A stretch of 32,000 nucleotides of DNA from assembly GCA_041521345.1 (NCBI GenBank), contig JBGOHB010000002.1, one strand, 5' to 3'. Under the pieces are notes generated by a model, which worked only from the letters and a program-made list of their open reading frames with translations, was not told where the DNA came from and ran no database searches. Below, in pieces: positions 19,869 to 25,562 of the stretch. Both the position numbers and the translations under genes were made by a program. The DNA is from Virgibacillus oceani. GTDB lineage: Bacteria > Bacillota > Bacilli > Bacillales > Amphibacillaceae. Position 1 is the first letter of the stretch, and each line of letters begins with the position of its first letter.

Positions 19869-20368
19869 GATTATCTTCCTCCAGATATCATTCTACCCTT
19901 TTTATTGGCTCTTCAACCCTCTTAAAGCTTGGTTTCATGCCTTGTTAACAATTTTCTACCCAATCTTTTCTCCATATATTTGCCAATCACCTAAAATAAT
20001 AAAATACATAACCTACTGTCTTGTTTCGATTTGGAACGGGTGGAAACTCCATAACATTTGAACTCAATAGGCAAGCTCGCCCTTCACTGCATACATGCTG
20101 CTAAAACTGATGATACAGAAACGTTGAATAAATTTTTGAAAGGTTTTTACTCGTGAAATTATTCTATACTCAATTCGTATCCCATTCATATCAACCAGGA
20201 TTAAACTGAAGTGTTTAATTCTAATCCAAACTGCCTGCTATACCTAGTCAGAACCACGGAACAGCTACTTTAATTTCATTGTTTTTCATTTTTTTATTGT
20301 ATTTTTCCGTTGGTTTTGCATATAATATAGAAACAGAGAACATTTGTTCTTTTTTGGAGGGATGTCGT

Positions 20369-20758
20369 ATGCGGTATCTTCAAGATGAGGATTCTAAAGT
20401 GTCCGTACGTTTTCTTTTTTTATCCATGGCAATGATCGTCATTGAGCAGGATATAAAGCATGTGGAAGCCGGACCATTCAAAATAAAAGAACCGTATCTG
20501 CAGCTATTGAAAAGCATGATGCAGATCGCTGTTAGTGAACGGAAGCAGTTAAGAAAAATCATGTTGCAGAAAAGCATGCATGTAGTAAGACTGCATAAAA
20601 ATGATTCGTTCTCCACTTTTTTACTTATCTGTGATGGTCATGAGGAAAAAAGGAATTTTTTTAATCCGGCAATACGGATGAAAGTGGAGGAAATTTTACA
20701 GGAGCTTATGGATAAGGCTCTGCTATCATCCCAGCAGTATGTTTCTTCAAATACTTGA
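20369..20758 (+). CDS. hypothetical protein, 129 aa (position corresponds to the B. subtilis yhjD/yhzC neighbourhood)
   Basis: ATG at 20369 follows GGAGGGATGTCGT. The track start at 20279 has no RBS. Its 3' end overlaps the comK remnant convergently by 53 nt. Confidence 0.5.
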   Translation: MRYLQDEDSKVSVRFLFLSMAMIVIEQDIKHVEAGPFKIKEPYLQLLKSMMQIAVSERKQLRKIMLQKSMHVVRLHKNDSFSTFLLICDGHEEKRNFFNPAIRMKVEEILQELMDKALLSSQQYVSSNT

Positions 20759-20963
20759 GCCGGTGATCCAGCGTATAGCGAAATTGAGCCGTTCGCTGTA
20801 TTTGATTTTGAATCGAACCATAAGAAACTTGCAGCAACACCCGCTGGCCATCTTTGAAAATAATTTCCGTACCTTTACCCACTTTATTAACATGTTCAAT
20901 ATGGGAATGACCAATCCATGAGCATGAGGGGTTTCTCGGAGATGTAGTCGGAAAGAAGTACAT
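20706..20963 (-). pseudogene. comK: comK 3' fragment (C-terminal half of the competence transcription factor), truncated by prophage insertion
   Basis: FFPTTSPRNPSCSWIGHSHIEHV...LQVSYGSIQNQIQRTAQFRYTLDHRL aligns to B. subtilis ComK LFPTLSSTRPQCGWISHVHVKEF...LPISYNSFENQVYRTAWLRTKFQDRI (second half of the protein). An in-frame stop lies 8 codons upstream of the ATG (20990-20988). Phage genes follow immediately. Confidence 0.8.
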
Positions 20964-21141: not shown

Positions 21142-21169
21142 AAAATAAAAAGCCCTCGGTGTGAGGGCT
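21142..21169 (-). terminator. rho-independent terminator ending the accessory operon
   Basis: Stem AGCCCTC / GAGGGCT starts right after the stop codon and is followed on the minus strand by TTTTTATTTT. Confidence 0.8.
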
Positions 21170-21712
21170 TTACATTTGAGTTATAAAAGTAACTATAATT
21201 GCTGATATTCCTATAATAAAAGCCACTTGTCCCCAAAAGTTAGTTCTTTTCATTGACTCTAAATTTTTAACGGAATCATCAATTTTTTGTTCTGACTTTT
21301 CAAGACTAGCTTTCATTTTCTCATTTTCTTCAACAATTTTATTTTCAAGTTTTTCTATTACTGCAATAAAGCGTTCTTCTCTTTCTTTACTTTCTTTTTG
21401 ATAATTTTTTAAAGATTCATTAAAACGTTCTTCACGATTAATCGTTTCTTCCCTAAGCCTTGTTTCACGTTCTCGTGCATCATCCAGTAAATGCTTTTCT
21501 GTTTCTCTTCTATCGGTATCAACTTTTTCCATATATTTTTCTAATATTTTACTGTCATCCATTTTTTCACCGCCGTTATATTGATGGTTACTAGTTGCTG
21601 CTATTTCATTTATAGGTATAGCATGGTTTAAGTGTGATCTTTTACGTTTACCACCTATAACACCGTCAGACTGTCCAGGAAATTCAATGACTTTGCCCTC
21701 AGAAGCATTCAT
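21170..21712 (-). CDS. C-tail-anchored coiled-coil membrane protein, 180 aa, function unknown
   Basis: ATGA start/stop overlap with the upstream gene; RBS GGAGAGGG. A long charged E/K/R heptad-like region ends in a single C-terminal TM segment (FWGQVAFIIGISAIIVTFITQM). Confidence 0.65.
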   Translation of the reverse strand: MNASEGKVIEFPGQSDGVIGGKRKRSHLNHAIPINEIAATSNHQYNGGEKMDDSKILEKYMEKVDTDRRETEKHLLDDARERETRLREETINREERFNESLKNYQKESKEREERFIAVIEKLENKIVEENEKMKASLEKSEQKIDDSVKNLESMKRTNFWGQVAFIIGISAIIVTFITQM

Positions 21713-22350
21713 TCATTTTCCCTCTCCTCTAACTCACTTTCAAGTGTAATCAGATATTCCTTTAAATCAATAGTTGTCGATTCTAAATCAGAAACAATGG
21801 TTCTAAGGTTAGATATATCTTCGAAACTGACAGCCCCTTCATTTAACATTAATGAAAAATAATACAGAATATCAGATATCATTAAAGAAAAATCTTTCGT
21901 GTCCACAGACATTAAAAATTGATCAGAATCATTTCTTAGTAGGTACATATTAAACATGTTTCTATTCTGATTATGCGTAAAATCCACTTTATCAAAACCC
22001 AAAGGATTAACATTGAATTGTTTGGCTCTCTTAAAATCCAATGAATAATTAAACAATAAATAATTCAAAAAAGTATTTGCTTTTTCGTTTTTAAATATTA
22101 TATCGTCATAGGAATTGTCTTTAATATTTCCTCCCAATGCAAACCAAAATAGAAACATCGAAGCCTCTATTCCCATTATTTTAGGTAAAAATTCATCTCT
22201 CAAATTATAATATGACTTTGGCCATTCAGGACCTTCTATGCAACGATCAATAGTGTTTATTAATAGATGCTTATTAAATTCGTCTGATATGTAATCAATA
22301 AATGAATTGTAACCTTCTATTACTTGGTTGTAATCTAAATCTATTTCCAA
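21709..22350 (-). CDS. hypothetical protein, 213 aa, no recognisable motif
   Basis: Preferred start is TTG at 22350, 7 nt after AAGGAGGG. The track ATG at 22461 has no RBS and overlaps the YolD-like gene. Very AT-rich. Translationally coupled to the downstream gene. Confidence 0.6.
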   Translation of the reverse strand: MEIDLDYNQVIEGYNSFIDYISDEFNKHLLINTIDRCIEGPEWPKSYYNLRDEFLPKIMGIEASMFLFWFALGGNIKDNSYDDIIFKNEKANTFLNYLLFNYSLDFKRAKQFNVNPLGFDKVDFTHNQNRNMFNMYLLRNDSDQFLMSVDTKDFSLMISDILYYFSLMLNEGAVSFEDISNLRTIVSDLESTTIDLKEYLITLESELEERENE

Positions 22351-22441
22351 TATTTCTCCCTCCTTATATTGAATACATTCTACAAATAAGGTCTCTTTTC
22401 CTGCTTTTTTGCAAAATAGATATAACAATTGTAAATTTAAT

Positions 22442-22756
22442 TTAATCCACCATAACATCAATTACATCATTAATGCCAACCTTTGTTCCGTCATCAAAAA
22501 TAATACAGTCATCAGCAACAATACTTTTTAATTTACCTCTCAACATATGGTATTCATAATTGCTGAAAAACTTTACTTCAACAGTAAGACTATCGTGAAT
22601 AGCAAGCTGCAGCTTCATCACATTTTCCTCTATCTGCTGTTCATCCTGGATTGGCTTTTCTTTTTTATCATCTTCTGCCCACATTTCTTTAATCATCTGT
22701 ACATGCTCAGGCAACATGAGCGTAGTCCATTTTATGCTACCCCTGTCATTTGTCAT
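22442..22756 (-). CDS. YolD-like protein
   Basis: RGSIKWTTLMLPEHVQMIKEMW matches the YolD-family signature (R-G-x-I-K-W...MLPEH). RBS AGGAGG. ATGA overlap with the upstream gene. Confidence 0.75.
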   Translation of the reverse strand: MTNDRGSIKWTTLMLPEHVQMIKEMWAEDDKKEKPIQDEQQIEENVMKLQLAIHDSLTVEVKFFSNYEYHMLRGKLKSIVADDCIIFDDGTKVGINDVIDVMVD

Positions 22757-22965
22757 GCTGTAAACCTCCTGCTTGCTTTTTGTAACGACAATATGTTTTC
22801 CATTTTAAAGGTGCGTACCTTCTTCCGATAATAACAATAAGCTAAAATGCTGTTTTCATGCTTATCCAGTACCCGGATAAACCGCTGTGTCAAGTTATTA
22901 TCGTCATCAATATAAATCATTTCCAACACAGTTTTACTACCGACGGCACGGTTTATTAAGTCCAT
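22753..22965 (-). CDS. small WYL-like domain protein, 70 aa
   Basis: VLEMIYIDDDNNLTQRFIRVLDKHENSILAYCYYRKKVRTFKMENILSL follows the WYL-domain pattern (Y-x-d-x-g-x-x-T-x-R-x-I...ayC...R-x-F...I). RBS GAGGTGA. Confidence 0.5.
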   Translation of the reverse strand: MDLINRAVGSKTVLEMIYIDDDNNLTQRFIRVLDKHENSILAYCYYRKKVRTFKMENILSLQKASRRFTA

Positions 22966-22981
22966 AAGATCACCTCAAAAG

Positions 22982-23035
22982 GAAACGTTTGTTCTAATAT
23001 GATACCATAAAAACGAGAACGTGTGTACTGTTGTT
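22982..23035 (-). promoter_or_regulatory. putative SOS-regulated promoter with two LexA (Cheo) boxes
   Basis: On the minus strand: -35 TACACA, 17-nt spacer, extended -10 TGgTATCAT. Box 1 is AGAACAAACGTTTC (22995-22982), just downstream of -10. Box 2 is AGTACACACGTTCT (23029-23016), overlapping -35, with one mismatch to GAAC-N4-GTTC. Confidence 0.55.
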
Positions 23036-23040
23036 TATAG

Positions 23041-23068
23041 TTGAATATTTTGCTTTTTAATATATAAT
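23041..23068 (+). promoter_or_regulatory. putative sigma-A promoter for the small Cys-rich ORF (divergent from the SOS promoter)
   Basis: TTGAAT, 16-nt spacer, TATAAT. Confidence 0.4.
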
Positions 23069-23159: not shown

Positions 23160-23303
23160 ATGAGTGATAATTACTGTGAATGCAATTCAATCGCAGGAGT
23201 GTATACTGATAATGTGGATTTTGGATATTGGGAGTACTGCACTGAATGCAATAAAAAGTTAGAAGATGGGTTCCATTATTATGATGAGCCTGAACTATAT
23301 TAA
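23160..23303 (+). CDS. 47-aa CxC...CxxC zinc-ribbon-like microprotein
   Basis: Below the track cutoff. ATG follows TTGGAGGTATTTTT. Translation MSDNYCECNSIAGVYTDNVDFGYWEYCTECNKKLEDGFHYYDEPELY. A terminator follows. Confidence 0.5.
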   Translation: MSDNYCECNSIAGVYTDNVDFGYWEYCTECNKKLEDGFHYYDEPELY

Positions 23304-23392: not shown

Positions 23393-24322
23393 TTATACAA
23401 ATGTCCCTGAATTTAATTGACGTTGCATTTCCCTGACCACCATAGATGGCCTACTTAACACACCATCTACGGTAGTACCCAAGTAAGTCTGTAACAACCT
23501 AATTGTCTGCGGTCCGAGTAAACCATCCACAGTAGCTCCAATTAACTTCTGCAACGCACGAATCACCATACTGCCGCCGCTGTTACTAAAACGTACAGTA
23601 TTGCCGTACATAGCTTCAGTGACAGAGTTTCTACGTTGGTTACTTATGATATCGTCAACAGTTGTACCAAGCGCAACCTGTAACGCTCCTGTTGTAGCAC
23701 CTCCCCACTTGCCATCAACTGTGAGGTTTGCACCTTTTGACTTGCTTGGAGGTTTAGCCTTTCCACCGCCAGAGCCGCCAGACAGCCCCAAATAAACCGC
23801 AATCCCTTTCGCATGTGCCTCAGCAATCTTTCTCAGGTTGCTATCACTCTTTAAAAAATCTGCATCCTGTGAATTGTCGATAAAGCCGTTTTCCGTTAGT
23901 ACTGCCGGCATACTGGACTGTCTCAATACTGCAAAGTTAGCCTGTTTTTTACCACGGTTGTTTCTAAACAGCGGAGCCAATTCTGCATGTAATGCATCTT
24001 GCAATTTTCCAGCTTCGGAATTTCTGCTTAATTGATTATAAATATAATCCTCATACCCATAGGCAGATCCGTTAAAAGCATTAATGTGGATAGATACAAA
24101 GATATCTGCTCCCCAGCTGTTTGCATCATTTGTACGATCTGTTAGCGATGGGAAACTGTCATCATTACGAGACATTCTCACAGATACACCACTATAATCA
24201 TTCTGCAAATAGTTCCTTGTATAACGTGCGATTTTTAGCACCACATCTTTTTCCTTTAATCCATTACCCGCAGCACCCGGATCACTGCCACCATGACCTG
24301 GATCTAAATATACTTTAGACAT
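23393..24322 (-). CDS. N-acetylmuramoyl-L-alanine amidase endolysin (Amidase_3 plus peptidoglycan-binding repeats)
   Basis: MSKVYLDPGHGGSDPGA...SIHINA matches the amidase_3 core. The C-terminus has three VDG-x-x-G-x-x-T...LQ repeats (PG_binding_1-like). Confidence 0.95.
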   Translation of the reverse strand: MSKVYLDPGHGGSDPGAAGNGLKEKDVVLKIARYTRNYLQNDYSGVSVRMSRNDDSFPSLTDRTNDANSWGADIFVSIHINAFNGSAYGYEDYIYNQLSRNSEAGKLQDALHAELAPLFRNNRGKKQANFAVLRQSSMPAVLTENGFIDNSQDADFLKSDSNLRKIAEAHAKGIAVYLGLSGGSGGGKAKPPSKSKGANLTVDGKWGGATTGALQVALGTTVDDIISNQRRNSVTEAMYGNTVRFSNSGGSMVIRALQKLIGATVDGLLGPQTIRLLQTYLGTTVDGVLSRPSMVVREMQRQLNSGTFV

Positions 24323-24968: not shown

Positions 24969-25487
24969 CTACAATACTTTTATTACTTTAGCTTTACCTG
25001 TAAACAAGTACTCTACTTTTTTATTATCTAACACATGTCCTCCCCAGTATTTATTGGCATTCTCCCTAACTTTTGATAGAGGAATCGGATTTCCTTCAAC
25101 AAAAGTTGCGTCACACTTAAACACTACCCCAGTTAATGACAATTCAAGAAGTTGCACTTTATTATGCTCAAAATGCATTTTCCAGTCTTTCATACTTTCA
25201 TAATCTCCAACCCAAAGAGAAGTAAATCTTGACGGTAAGTTTTCATTAATGTTTTTTCTCTCCTCTTCAAAAATTGTCTCTCTAGCATAGTGCCAGTAAA
25301 AAGTAACTGCGCTTATTAGGGCTTGTTTATTATTTATAACATTCGGTACTTGGTTTTCATATGAAGACATAAATGGATTGATTGTTTTGCCTATGTTTAA
25401 AATATCACCCTCAGATAATAAGTTATATGGATTTTGATTACTTGTTGAATTACAATGATAAAAAATTTCATTTACTACTTCTTTCAT
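24969..25487 (-). CDS. hypothetical protein, 172 aa (accessory gene between the tail-fibre and lysis modules)
   Basis: ATG at 25487 follows AGGAGGGGATTTTT. AT-rich. Has its own terminator. Confidence 0.6.
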   Translation of the reverse strand: MKEVVNEIFYHCNSTSNQNPYNLLSEGDILNIGKTINPFMSSYENQVPNVINNKQALISAVTFYWHYARETIFEEERKNINENLPSRFTSLWVGDYESMKDWKMHFEHNKVQLLELSLTGVVFKCDATFVEGNPIPLSKVRENANKYWGGHVLDNKKVEYLFTGKAKVIKVL

Positions 25488-25562
25488 AAAAATCCCCTCC
25501 TGCCTAATTATTTCTACAGGGTGGGGCAAAAGTCCTTCTTTTTTCACACATAAAAATAACGC

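What the first reader, a model, noticed from the sequence alone, without database searches (positions are those of the whole stretch)
22442..22965. YolD-like protein and WYL-like mini-protein without the usual Y-family polymerase partner
In B. subtilis, YolD-like genes (yolD, yqjX, yozL) sit directly upstream of UmuC-type Y-family polymerase genes (uvrX, yqjW, yozK), and YolD has been proposed as a UmuD-like accessory. Here the YolD-like gene is start/stop-coupled (ATGA at 22756-22753) to a 70-aa WYL-like protein. It is followed by the two unknown genes rather than a polymerase. This suggests either a repurposed DNA-damage-sensing module feeding a new effector pair, or a polymerase lost or replaced by recombination.
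Basis: partly seen in the sequence, partly recalled or inferred. Interest (0 to 1): 0.6.

Follow-up and report, generated by a model that had tools for sequence, protein, structure and literature searches.

The report
SOS-controlled mini-WYL plus YolD prophage cassette
A prophage inserted in comK carries a 0.6-kb, probably DNA-damage-switched, two-gene cassette: a helper subunit of an error-prone repair polymerase and a tiny one-domain protein that probably binds single-stranded DNA; the polymerase is encoded elsewhere in the host, and the tiny protein belongs to a large, unstudied family.

Summary
22442-22756(-) is a YolD protein (Pfam 63.5 bits, cut-off 27.5). 22753-22965(-) is a stand-alone WYL domain: Pfam falls just below cut-off, but the fold matches PafBC, BrxR, CapW and DriD. 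The two genes overlap by ATGA, and the window holds no Y-family polymerase.

The pair is a self-contained 593-bp cassette (23038-22446) with a promoter bracketed by two LexA boxes. A second copy (76% nucleotide identity) sits in another prophage of the same genome, followed by different genes. The downstream 213-aa and 180-aa genes are a separate cassette, found elsewhere without YolD.

Lacking a polymerase is the norm for this cassette. Of 38 mini-WYL loci with a YolD nearby, 34 have no polymerase within 5-6 kb. The host has an orphan UvrX-type polymerase with its own perfect LexA box.

The mini-WYL family is widespread: 225 of 401 sampled Bacilli genomes. A perfect LexA core lies upstream in 59 of 101 loci, against 0.2% of control windows.

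Best reading: an SOS-induced accessory module acting in trans on the host polymerase. The role of the mini-WYL protein is inferred, not shown. Earlier notes of this scan describe the same kind of cassette on other DNA.

The parts
23016..23029 (-). Distal LexA (Cheo) box AGTACACACGTTCT, one mismatch in the GAAC-N4-GTTC core, overlapping the -35
   Evidence: Sequence and pattern search. The same GTAC variant lies at -64 to -87 in L026, L038, L042, L044, L052, L056 and L057.
22999..23027 (-). Sigma-A-type promoter: -35 TACACA (23027-23022), 17-nt spacer, TG-extended -10 TATCAT (23004-22999)
   Evidence: Consensus scan. This is a consensus match only; its position between two conserved LexA boxes supports it.
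22982..22995 (-). Proximal LexA box AGAACAAACGTTTC (one core mismatch), immediately downstream of the -10
   Evidence: A box at the same position occurs in nearly all homologous loci. A perfect core lies within 120 nt upstream in 59 of 101 loci, against 14 of 7640 control windows.
22753..22965 (-). Stand-alone mini-WYL protein, 70 aa (one Sm/SH3-like barrel with a short N-terminal helix)
   Evidence: pN/pS is 0.27 against the C12 copy.
22442..22756 (-). YolD-family protein, 104 aa: N-terminal arm NDRGSIKWTTLMLPEH, two helices, C-terminal Sm/SH3-like barrel; start overlaps the mini-WYL stop (ATGA)
   Evidence: pN/pS is 0.23 overall and 0.13 in the N-terminal half.
22446..23038 (-). Extent of the mobile cassette: the block shared (76% nucleotide identity) with the second copy at G000:C12
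   Evidence: blastn of the two copies with their flanks.
22351..22441 (-). Junction and intergenic region. It is homologous to the region upstream of the 213-aa gene in L006/L007 and probably carries that cassette's own promoter. No terminator was detected here.
   Evidence: The promoter is inferred.
21709..22350 (-). 213-aa protein, first gene of a separate prophage-end cassette (not part of the SOS cassette)
   Evidence: Only 4 clusters in 5.8 billion proteins. Contexts lack YolD upstream.
21170..21712 (-). 180-aa coiled-coil protein with a C-terminal membrane anchor, partner of the 213-aa protein
21149..21171 (-). Intrinsic terminator closing the leftward transcription unit(s)
20337..20758 (+). 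Host gene for a YhjD-like protein (start 20369) with a perfect LexA box AGAACATTTGTTCT (20337-20350) after a TATAAT; part of the same dispersed SOS regulon
   Evidence: (jackhmmer groups it with YhjD proteins).
20706..20963 (-). C-terminal fragment of comK, marking the prophage/host junction
   Evidence: Pfam ComK positions 82-151 of 152. The N-terminal fragment lies 42 kb away on the same contig.

Best explanation
The finding is a self-contained, LexA-repressed two-gene cassette (window 23038-22446) carried as cargo at the lysin-proximal end of a comK-integrated prophage.

Proposed sequence of events:
1. DNA damage leads to LexA cleavage, which frees the promoter (inferred from the operator layout).
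2. The mini-WYL protein and YolD are then made together through ATGA translational coupling (shown by the sequence).
3. YolD is the small subunit of the Gram-positive Pol V-like mutasome. It keeps the conserved N-terminal arm that, in published models, inserts into UvrX/YqjW-type polymerases.
4. It therefore most likely docks onto the host's own SOS-boxed UvrX-type polymerase, encoded in trans on contig C96 (inferred).
5. This would raise or tune translesion synthesis on damaged host and phage DNA at the time the prophage is likely to be induced.

The mini-WYL protein is a stand-alone version of the domain that binds single-stranded DNA in DriD and CapW. It probably binds ssDNA or YolD's barrel and targets or gates the complex (inferred, weakest step).

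The two downstream genes are an unrelated neighbouring cassette.
For: The cassette is discrete.
- A 593-bp block at 76% identity is shared with a second prophage in the same genome. It ends at the YolD stop, and the downstream genes differ.
- Both genes are under purifying selection: pN/pS 0.27 and 0.23.

LexA control.
- Two boxes bracket the promoter.
- A perfect GAAC-N4-GTTC lies within 120 nt upstream of mini-WYL genes in 59 of 101 loci, against 0.18% of control windows. With one mismatch allowed the figures are 85 of 101 against 3.3%.
- Only 34 perfect boxes exist in the 4.66-Mb genome. They sit at the second cassette, at two further YolD genes, at the yhjD-like gene and at the UvrX-like polymerase.

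YolD looks functional.
- The arm DRGxIKWxxxMLPEH is conserved as in the polymerase-linked YolDs of SPbeta, PVJ1 and L082, and it is the most constrained part of the protein.
- The model shows a disordered arm, two helices and an Sm/SH3 barrel.
- The published role of the arm is in PMC12926913. The dispersed LexA-boxed yolD and polymerase of Staphylococcus are described in PMC6511836.

A host partner exists.
- The C96 polymerase is 52% identical to SPbeta UvrX, shares its C-terminal tail, and has a LexA box just upstream of its start codon.
- All 10 other genomes tested that carry a polymerase-less cassette have a UvrX-type polymerase elsewhere.

The mini-WYL protein is linked to the polymerase system.
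- Its immediate downstream gene is YolD, YhjD or the polymerase itself in many loci from at least 8 GTDB families.
- In phage PVJ1 it leads the operon mini-WYL, LexA-head, Pol V, YolD.

Fold: WYL domains, including the ssDNA-bound CapW and DriD structures.
Against: - No expression, binding or phenotype data exist.
- The window's two LexA boxes each carry one core mismatch, and one-mismatch boxes are not enriched in the window as a whole (15 found, 10.3 expected). Their weight rests on position and conservation.
- Co-occurrence with a UvrX-type polymerase does not discriminate. 7 of 10 control genomes without a mini-WYL match also have one.
- In 46 of 60 class-wide loci the mini-WYL gene has no polymerase-related neighbour. 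Its core function may therefore not depend on translesion synthesis.
- Some phage YolD-likes paired with mini-WYL lack the polymerase-binding arm.
- Published genetics for B. subtilis yqjX showed only a 1.5-fold effect on mutagenesis (PMC6511836).
- Profile-profile comparison found no significant mini-WYL/YolD similarity, and no complex could be modelled here.
Confidence: 0.55

Rival explanations
1. The pair is an SOS-triggered phage control module unrelated to translesion synthesis. Examples would be an antirepressor or RecA/LexA modulator that couples prophage induction or host physiology to DNA damage, in the manner of the LexA-controlled antirepressors of coliphage 186 (Tum) and the Gifsy phages.
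For: - It is a LexA-boxed small-protein operon at a prophage end.
- The same pair sits between lysin and integrase in phages B13, Fern, AP45 and Mimir87.
- Some of these YolD-likes lack the polymerase-binding arm.
- Mini-WYL genes are repeatedly coupled to LexA DNA-binding heads that have no cleavage domain (Pfam LexA_DNA_bind 1e-17 to 1e-20).
Against: - Most family members lie in loci with no phage lysin within 5 kb (lysin in 3 of 60 class-wide loci).
- The family is found in 225 of 401 sampled Bacilli genomes, which does not fit a phage-specific antirepressor.
- The window's YolD keeps the constrained polymerase-binding arm.
- There is no similarity to known antirepressor families in Pfam, PHROGs or NCBIfam.
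Confidence: 0.17
2. One reading: all four genes form one damage-responsive operon. In it the mini-WYL/YolD pair senses damage and controls the 213-aa and tail-anchored 180-aa proteins as a new effector pair, for example a membrane-acting abortive or lysis-related function.
For: - The four genes share a strand and a low GC content of about 31%.
- No terminator was detected between YolD and the 213-aa gene, and a single terminator follows the fourth gene. SOS-driven read-through into the pair is therefore possible.
- In Ureibacillus and Aeribacillus the homologous pair lies within about 1 kb of a mini-WYL+YhjD pair, although in divergent or convergent orientation.
Against: - The pair occurs without YolD upstream. 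In its closest homologue it follows a terminator and has its own conserved upstream region.
- The C12 copy of the cassette has other genes downstream, and homology ends at the YolD stop.
- Of 35 related loci, only the window has the pair.
- Neither protein hits a defence-system model.
Confidence: 0.1
3. Decaying remnant: the cassette is what is left of a yolD-uvrX-type operon after the polymerase was deleted, and it no longer has a function.
For: - Classical YolD genes sit next to their polymerase (SPbeta; PMC6511836).
- Polymerase fragments lie beside some cassettes (L026, L083).
- A truncated YolD exists in this genome on C42.
Against: - Both reading frames are intact in two diverged copies, with pN/pS 0.23-0.27.
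- The promoter, the LexA boxes and the ATGA coupling are conserved across genera.
- The polymerase-less layout is the majority state (34 of 38).
Confidence: 0.05

Closest known systems
B. subtilis SPbeta yolD-uvrX and chromosomal yqjX-yqjW (PolY2) SOS operons; the proposed YqjW-YqjX-RecA mutasome (PMC6511836, PMC12926913)
   Same: A YolD-family small subunit with the conserved N-terminal arm and Sm/SH3 barrel. The operator is of LexA type. It is carried on a prophage, as in SPbeta.
   Different: No polymerase gene lies in the operon or the window. An extra, translationally coupled stand-alone WYL protein leads the operon; SPbeta has none upstream of yolD. The polymerase partner must come from the host, on contig C96.
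Staphylococcus aureus dispersed yolD (SACOL1986) and uvrX-like (SACOL1400) genes, each with a LexA site (as described in PMC6511836)
   Same: The YolD and the UvrX-type polymerase genes lie in different genome regions, each under its own LexA box. That is the layout found in this genome.
   Different: Here the YolD is phage-borne, present in several copies (two prophages plus the chromosome), and coupled to a mini-WYL gene.
HTH-WYL-WCX regulators that sense single-stranded DNA: DriD, CapW, BrxR, PafBC (PDB 8tp8, 9c5g, 7t8k, 6sj9; PMC12041258)
   Same: The 70-aa protein has the WYL fold (TM 0.73-0.81) and the family's conserved Arg/Tyr/Phe pattern (Y18, R28, R47, R51, F53). It belongs to a DNA-damage context.
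   Different: It is the WYL domain alone. It has no HTH and no WCX dimerisation domain, so it cannot be a transcription factor of that type. It is a target of LexA control, not a LexA-independent regulator.
LexA-controlled prophage antirepressors (coliphage 186 Tum, Gifsy phages); named from my own knowledge, not tested here
   Same: A small protein operon on a prophage, repressed by host LexA and located away from the immunity region.
   Different: No sequence or fold similarity was found. The mini-WYL family is mostly found away from phage genes, and YolD is a polymerase accessory family.

Membership tests
YolD family (Pfam PF08863) | Match to the family profile above the curated cut-off | tested here: met
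   63.5 bits against 27.5, E=2e-17.
YolD family (Pfam PF08863) | Conserved N-terminal arm (DRGxxKWxxxMLPEH), the part modelled as inserting into UvrX/YqjW-type polymerases (PMC12926913) | tested here: met
   NDRGSIKWTTLMLPEH aligns with the arms of SPbeta YolD, PVJ1 YolD and the L082 YolD. D4, R5, G6, K9, W10, M14, P16 and E17 are invariant in A3.
YolD family (Pfam PF08863) | C-terminal Sm/SH3-like beta-barrel of the WYL-like superfamily | tested here: met
   The model has five strands at residues 58-103 (pLDDT about 84). Foldseek returns SH3 mini-barrels, Hfq and WYL domains, but only at E about 0.03-0.1.
YolD family (Pfam PF08863) | Gene adjacent to a UvrX/YqjW-type polymerase (typical but not universal, PMC6511836) | tested here: not met
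   The only Y-family genes are on C23 and C96, and the window is on C20.
YolD family (Pfam PF08863) | Physical binding to the polymerase | not testable with these tools
   No multimer prediction or experiment was available.
WYL domain (Pfam PF13280) | Match to the family profile above the curated cut-off | tested here: not met
   20.3 bits against 21.8, E=5.8e-4. 13 of 24 relatives match at E<0.01, best 7e-5. A PADLOC WYL model matches at 1e-7.
WYL domain (Pfam PF13280) | WYL/Sm-like five-stranded barrel fold | tested here: met
   Model pLDDT 88.5. The top Foldseek hits are the WYL domains of PafBC, BrxR, CapW and DriD, at TM 0.73-0.81 and E from 2.6e-4. The PDB sequence profile finds the same proteins.
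WYL domain (Pfam PF13280) | Conserved basic and aromatic ligand-pocket residues | tested here: inconclusive
   Y18, R28, R51 and F53 are invariant, and R47 nearly so. They were not superposed on the ssDNA-contact residues of DriD or CapW.
WYL domain (Pfam PF13280) | Binding of single-stranded DNA or another ligand | not testable with these tools
   Inferred only from solved relatives (9c5g, 8tp8, 7tzv).
HTH-WYL-WCX transcription regulators (DriD/CapW/BrxR/PafBC type) | N-terminal HTH and C-terminal WCX domains flanking the WYL domain | tested here: not met
   The protein is 70 aa, a single domain. The top 150 relatives among 1864 clusters are almost all 60-80 aa.
LexA (SOS) regulon of Bacilli | Cheo box GAAC-N4-GTTC at the promoter, conserved in orthologous loci | tested here: met
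   Two one-mismatch boxes bracket the promoter. A perfect core lies upstream in 59 of 101 homologous loci, against 14 of 7640 control windows.
LexA (SOS) regulon of Bacilli | LexA binding and damage induction shown experimentally | not testable with these tools
LexA-controlled phage antirepressors (Tum type) | Similarity to a known antirepressor family, or restriction of the family to prophages | tested here: not met
   No such hits in Pfam, PHROGs or NCBIfam. The family is in 225 of 401 Bacilli genomes, mostly without phage genes nearby.

The most novel reading that the evidence does not exclude
The stand-alone mini-WYL protein is an unrecognised, ssDNA-sensing component or gatekeeper of the Gram-positive Pol V-like mutasome (UvrX/YqjW polymerase with YolD or YhjD and RecA). 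It would replace the timing control that RecA-mediated UmuD cleavage provides in E. coli. Temperate phages would carry SOS-boxed mini-WYL+YolD cassettes to take over the host polymerase, so that damaged phage genomes can be copied or mutated on induction.
Probability: 0.25. Interest if true: 0.7.

Novelty: new variant of a known kind. Interest (0 to 1): 0.48.

Why it matters
How Gram-positive bacteria regulate their Pol V-like mutagenic polymerases is still open. YolD has no self-cleaving domain like UmuD, and its genetics in B. subtilis were inconclusive (PMC6511836).

This survey shows that a very common 70-aa WYL-only protein is a conserved LexA target. It was found in 225 of 401 sampled Bacilli genomes and forms 1864 sequence clusters. 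It is repeatedly coupled to the small subunits (YolD, YhjD), or to the polymerase gene itself. The papers I could search do not mention it. That gives a concrete, cheap-to-test candidate for a missing regulator.

The finding also shows that prophages spread polymerase helpers without the polymerase. This bears on stress-induced mutagenesis in lysogens.

For the window itself the result is more modest. It is one more copy of a recurrent cargo cassette, and the suggested link to the two downstream genes does not hold.

Tried and rejected
- DNA search of the four-gene region, and tblastn of the 213-aa protein, against phage records: no match.
- The 213-aa protein in 60 related genomes: found only in the window's own genome.
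- NCBIfam: no family for any of the proteins.
- The first alignment (A1) was too diverse for the genome-contig scan. The narrower A2 used a single pattern, LAYCYYRK, so that survey is biased towards Amphibacillaceae-like relatives. I offset this with a class-wide profile search and 60 fetched loci.
- hhalign of the mini-WYL profile against the YolD profile: no significant similarity, probability 0.1%. Their shared superfamily rests on folds and on the literature.
- Attempts to name a B. subtilis orthologue (yhjC or yqzH) from the literature failed, and the Au et al. 2005 paper is not held. I make no such claim.
- Co-occurrence of the cassette with a UvrX-type polymerase: 10 of 10, against 7 of 10 in controls. 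This is consistent but does not discriminate.
- Fusions of the mini-WYL domain to other domains, sought as functional clues: none among the best 150 representatives.
- Defence-system models: only generic WYL hits.

Full report
**Setting.** The window joins host chromosome to the end of a prophage. The host part holds addAB, a signal peptidase gene and a yhjD-like gene. ORF 20706-20963(-) matches only positions 82-151 of the 152-position ComK profile. The N-terminal part of comK lies 42 kb away on the same contig. The phage is therefore inserted in comK. Reading leftwards from the tail-fibre and lysis genes (amidase 23393-24322), the last four phage genes lie on the minus strand in a low-GC stretch of about 31%.

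**Observation.**
- 22442-22756(-) is a YolD-family protein (PF08863, 63.5 bits against a cut-off of 27.5).
- 22753-22965(-) encodes 70 aa. Its Pfam WYL score (20.3 bits) is just under the cut-off (21.8).
- Other evidence makes the 70-aa protein a genuine, minimal WYL domain. A PADLOC WYL model hits at 1e-7. Of 24 relatives, 13 hit Pfam WYL. A profile of the family finds the WYL domains of PafBC, PafC, CapW and BrxR among PDB sequences. The AlphaFold model (pLDDT 88.5) matches the WYL domains of PafBC, BrxR, CapW and DriD best, at TM 0.73-0.81, ahead of Hfq.
- The ATGA start/stop overlap at 22756-22753 is real.
- No Y-family polymerase lies in the window. The genome's only two are on other contigs.
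- One correction: the next gene is 213 aa, starting at the TTG near 22350, so a 91-nt gap follows YolD.

**The cassette and its limits.** The genome holds a second mini-WYL+YolD pair on contig C12, also just past the lysin of a prophage. There it is followed by XRE and ImmA-like genes and a tRNA.
- Aligning the two regions with their flanks gives one 593-bp block at 76% identity.
- The block runs from 73 nt upstream of the mini-WYL start to 4 nt before the YolD stop, window 23038-22446.
- Both genes are under purifying selection. pN/pS is 0.27 for mini-WYL and 0.23 for YolD. The YolD N-terminal half is the most constrained, at 0.13.

**The downstream pair is separate.** The 213-aa family has only four clusters in 5.8 billion proteins.
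- In Ureibacillus, Aeribacillus and two metagenomic contigs it sits with its partner next to phage lysins but never behind a YolD.
- In the closest homologue (75% identity) it follows a terminator hairpin. It shares with the window the sequence just upstream of its start, which points to its own promoter.
- None of 34 related Oceanobacillus, Virgibacillus, Amphibacillus or Lentibacillus loci has the pair.
- No terminator was detected between YolD and the 213-aa gene, so some read-through cannot be excluded.
My context data agree.

**LexA control.** The promoter is TACACA, 17 nt, TG-extended TATCAT (23027-22999). It is bracketed by AGTACACACGTTCT (23029-23016) and AGAACAAACGTTTC (22995-22982). 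Each box is one mismatch from the Bacillus GAAC-N4-GTTC core.
- Alone this is weak. One-mismatch boxes are not enriched in the window (15 found, 10.3 expected).
- Conservation gives it weight. In 101 homologous loci a perfect core lies within 120 nt upstream of the mini-WYL start in 59, against 14 of 7640 control windows. With one mismatch allowed the figures are 85 of 101 against 3.3%.
- The box usually abuts the -10 and often comes in tandem. The GTAC variant of the distal box recurs in seven related loci.
- These loci are related to one another, so the counts are not independent events. They do span many GTDB families.
- The whole genome has only 34 perfect cores. They stand before the C12 cassette, the C13 YolD, the C42 YolD fragment, the C96 polymerase, and the host yhjD-like gene at window 20338-20349.

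**Where the polymerase is.** C96:48344-49606 encodes a polymerase 52% identical to SPbeta UvrX. It has the same conserved C-terminal tail, a perfect LexA box just upstream of its start codon, and no YolD beside it. The C23 enzyme is of the DinB type, at 28-30% identity.
- This dispersed, individually LexA-boxed layout is what Timinskas & Venclovas describe for Staphylococcus (PMC6511836).
- The window's YolD keeps the arm NDRGSIKWTTLMLPEH, as do the polymerase-linked YolDs of SPbeta, phage PVJ1 and L082.
- A 2026 analysis models this arm as inserting into the polymerase. It notes that YolD, arm-only proteins and YhjD are alternative small subunits (PMC12926913).
- My model of the window's YolD shows a disordered arm, two helices and an Sm/SH3 barrel.

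**How usual the polymerase-less state is.**

| Set | Loci | YolD immediately downstream | Other immediate partner | Polymerase within 5-6 kb |
|---|---|---|---|---|
| Amphibacillaceae-like | 35 | 20 | none identified in 15 | 2 |
| Class-wide sample | 60 | 10 | polymerase 3, YhjD 1, none of these 46 | 3 |

- Overall, 34 of 38 mini-WYL loci with a YolD nearby lack a polymerase nearby.
- Phage records show the same cargo position between lysin and integrase in Mimir87, B. cereus phage B13, P. larvae phage Fern and Aeribacillus phage AP45.
- PVJ1 has the full operon: mini-WYL, LexA-head, Pol V, YolD.
- All 10 genomes tested that carry polymerase-less cassettes have a UvrX-type polymerase elsewhere. 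So do 7 of 10 control genomes. This is consistent, not decisive.

**The mini-WYL family.**
- The profile hits 225 of 401 sampled Bacilli genomes, in 90 of 146 genera.
- It hits 1864 clusters at 50% identity, 403 of them at E<=1e-10. Nearly all the best 150 are stand-alone proteins of 60-80 aa.
- Other recurrent downstream partners are LexA DNA-binding heads without a cleavage domain (Pfam LexA_DNA_bind, 1e-17 to 1e-20) and YqzM-like membrane peptides. Many members are monocistronic.
- In the papers I could search, YolD is placed in the WYL-like superfamily (PMC4012209, PMC6511836). I found no mention of a stand-alone WYL gene as an SOS-regulon member or mutasome neighbour. This is absence from a limited library, not proof of novelty.
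- Earlier notes of this scan report the same kind of thing on other DNA: e1-3141746, e1-3444758, e1-3635855, e1-3284152 and e1-1997556. They are leads, not independent evidence. I re-derived the main points here.

**Mechanism and verdict.**
- Shown: the family assignments, the coupling, the cassette limits, purifying selection, conserved LexA boxes, a LexA-boxed UvrX-type polymerase in trans, and the independence of the downstream pair.
- Inferred: damage induction, YolD docking onto the host polymerase, and ssDNA or YolD binding by the mini-WYL protein.
- The finding is a recurrent cargo cassette, a variant of the known yolD-polymerase SOS operons. Its most interesting part is the uncharacterised, widespread mini-WYL partner.

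Noticed in passing
window 20337-20758 (+): The host yhjD-like gene (start 20369) has a TATAAT followed by a perfect LexA box, AGAACATTTGTTCT. It is the only perfect GAAC-N4-GTTC in the window. YhjD proteins are proposed alternative small subunits of UvrX/YqjW polymerases (PMC12926913).
   Followed up: partly
G000:C12:1188-2735 (-), outside the window: A second mini-WYL+YolD cassette lies at the end of another prophage. It is followed by an XRE-type HTH (118 aa) and an ImmA/IrrE-like protein (171 aa), next to a tRNA gene.
   Followed up: partly
L061:5213-5416 (phage PVJ1), L068:4724-4987, L063:3667-3924 (phage Fern), L095, L107: Mini-WYL genes are repeatedly followed by a 67-87-aa protein that is only a LexA DNA-binding head, or a related winged helix, with no cleavage domain. 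Such a protein would be a non-cleavable competitor at LexA boxes.
   Followed up: partly
L078, L094, L100, L111, L122: In several families the mini-WYL gene is followed by a YqzM-like single-pass membrane peptide of about 45-60 aa (Pfam YqzM 1.5e-7 for L100). This recalls the SOS-induced small membrane division inhibitors.
   Followed up: no
L042, L044, L051-L053, L056, L063, L065: Some YolD-like partners of mini-WYL are barrel-only proteins of 75-96 aa without the polymerase-binding arm. In L042, L044 and L052 a second, arm-bearing YolD (132-135 aa) is transcribed divergently.
   Followed up: no
window 20706-20963 (-) and G000:C20:65924-66208: comK is split by a prophage of about 42 kb. The N-terminal fragment carries two in-frame TGA codons in the search output.
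   Followed up: partly
window 23160-23303 (+): A 47-aa ORF with two cysteine pairs (weak zinc-ribbon hit, E=0.036) is the only rightward gene between the endolysin and the SOS cassette. It has a near-consensus promoter, TTGAAT-16-TATAAT, at 23041-23068.
   Followed up: no
window 24969-25547 (-): A DUF2441 protein (Pfam 6e-13; PHROGs 9842 and 5663) is inserted between the tail-fibre genes and the lysis genes.
   Followed up: no
G000:C42:159075-159320 (-): A 5'-truncated YolD-like ORF (81 aa, 62-95% similar in parts to the prophage copies) still has a perfect LexA box at 159332. It lies in what looks like another mobile island.
   Followed up: no
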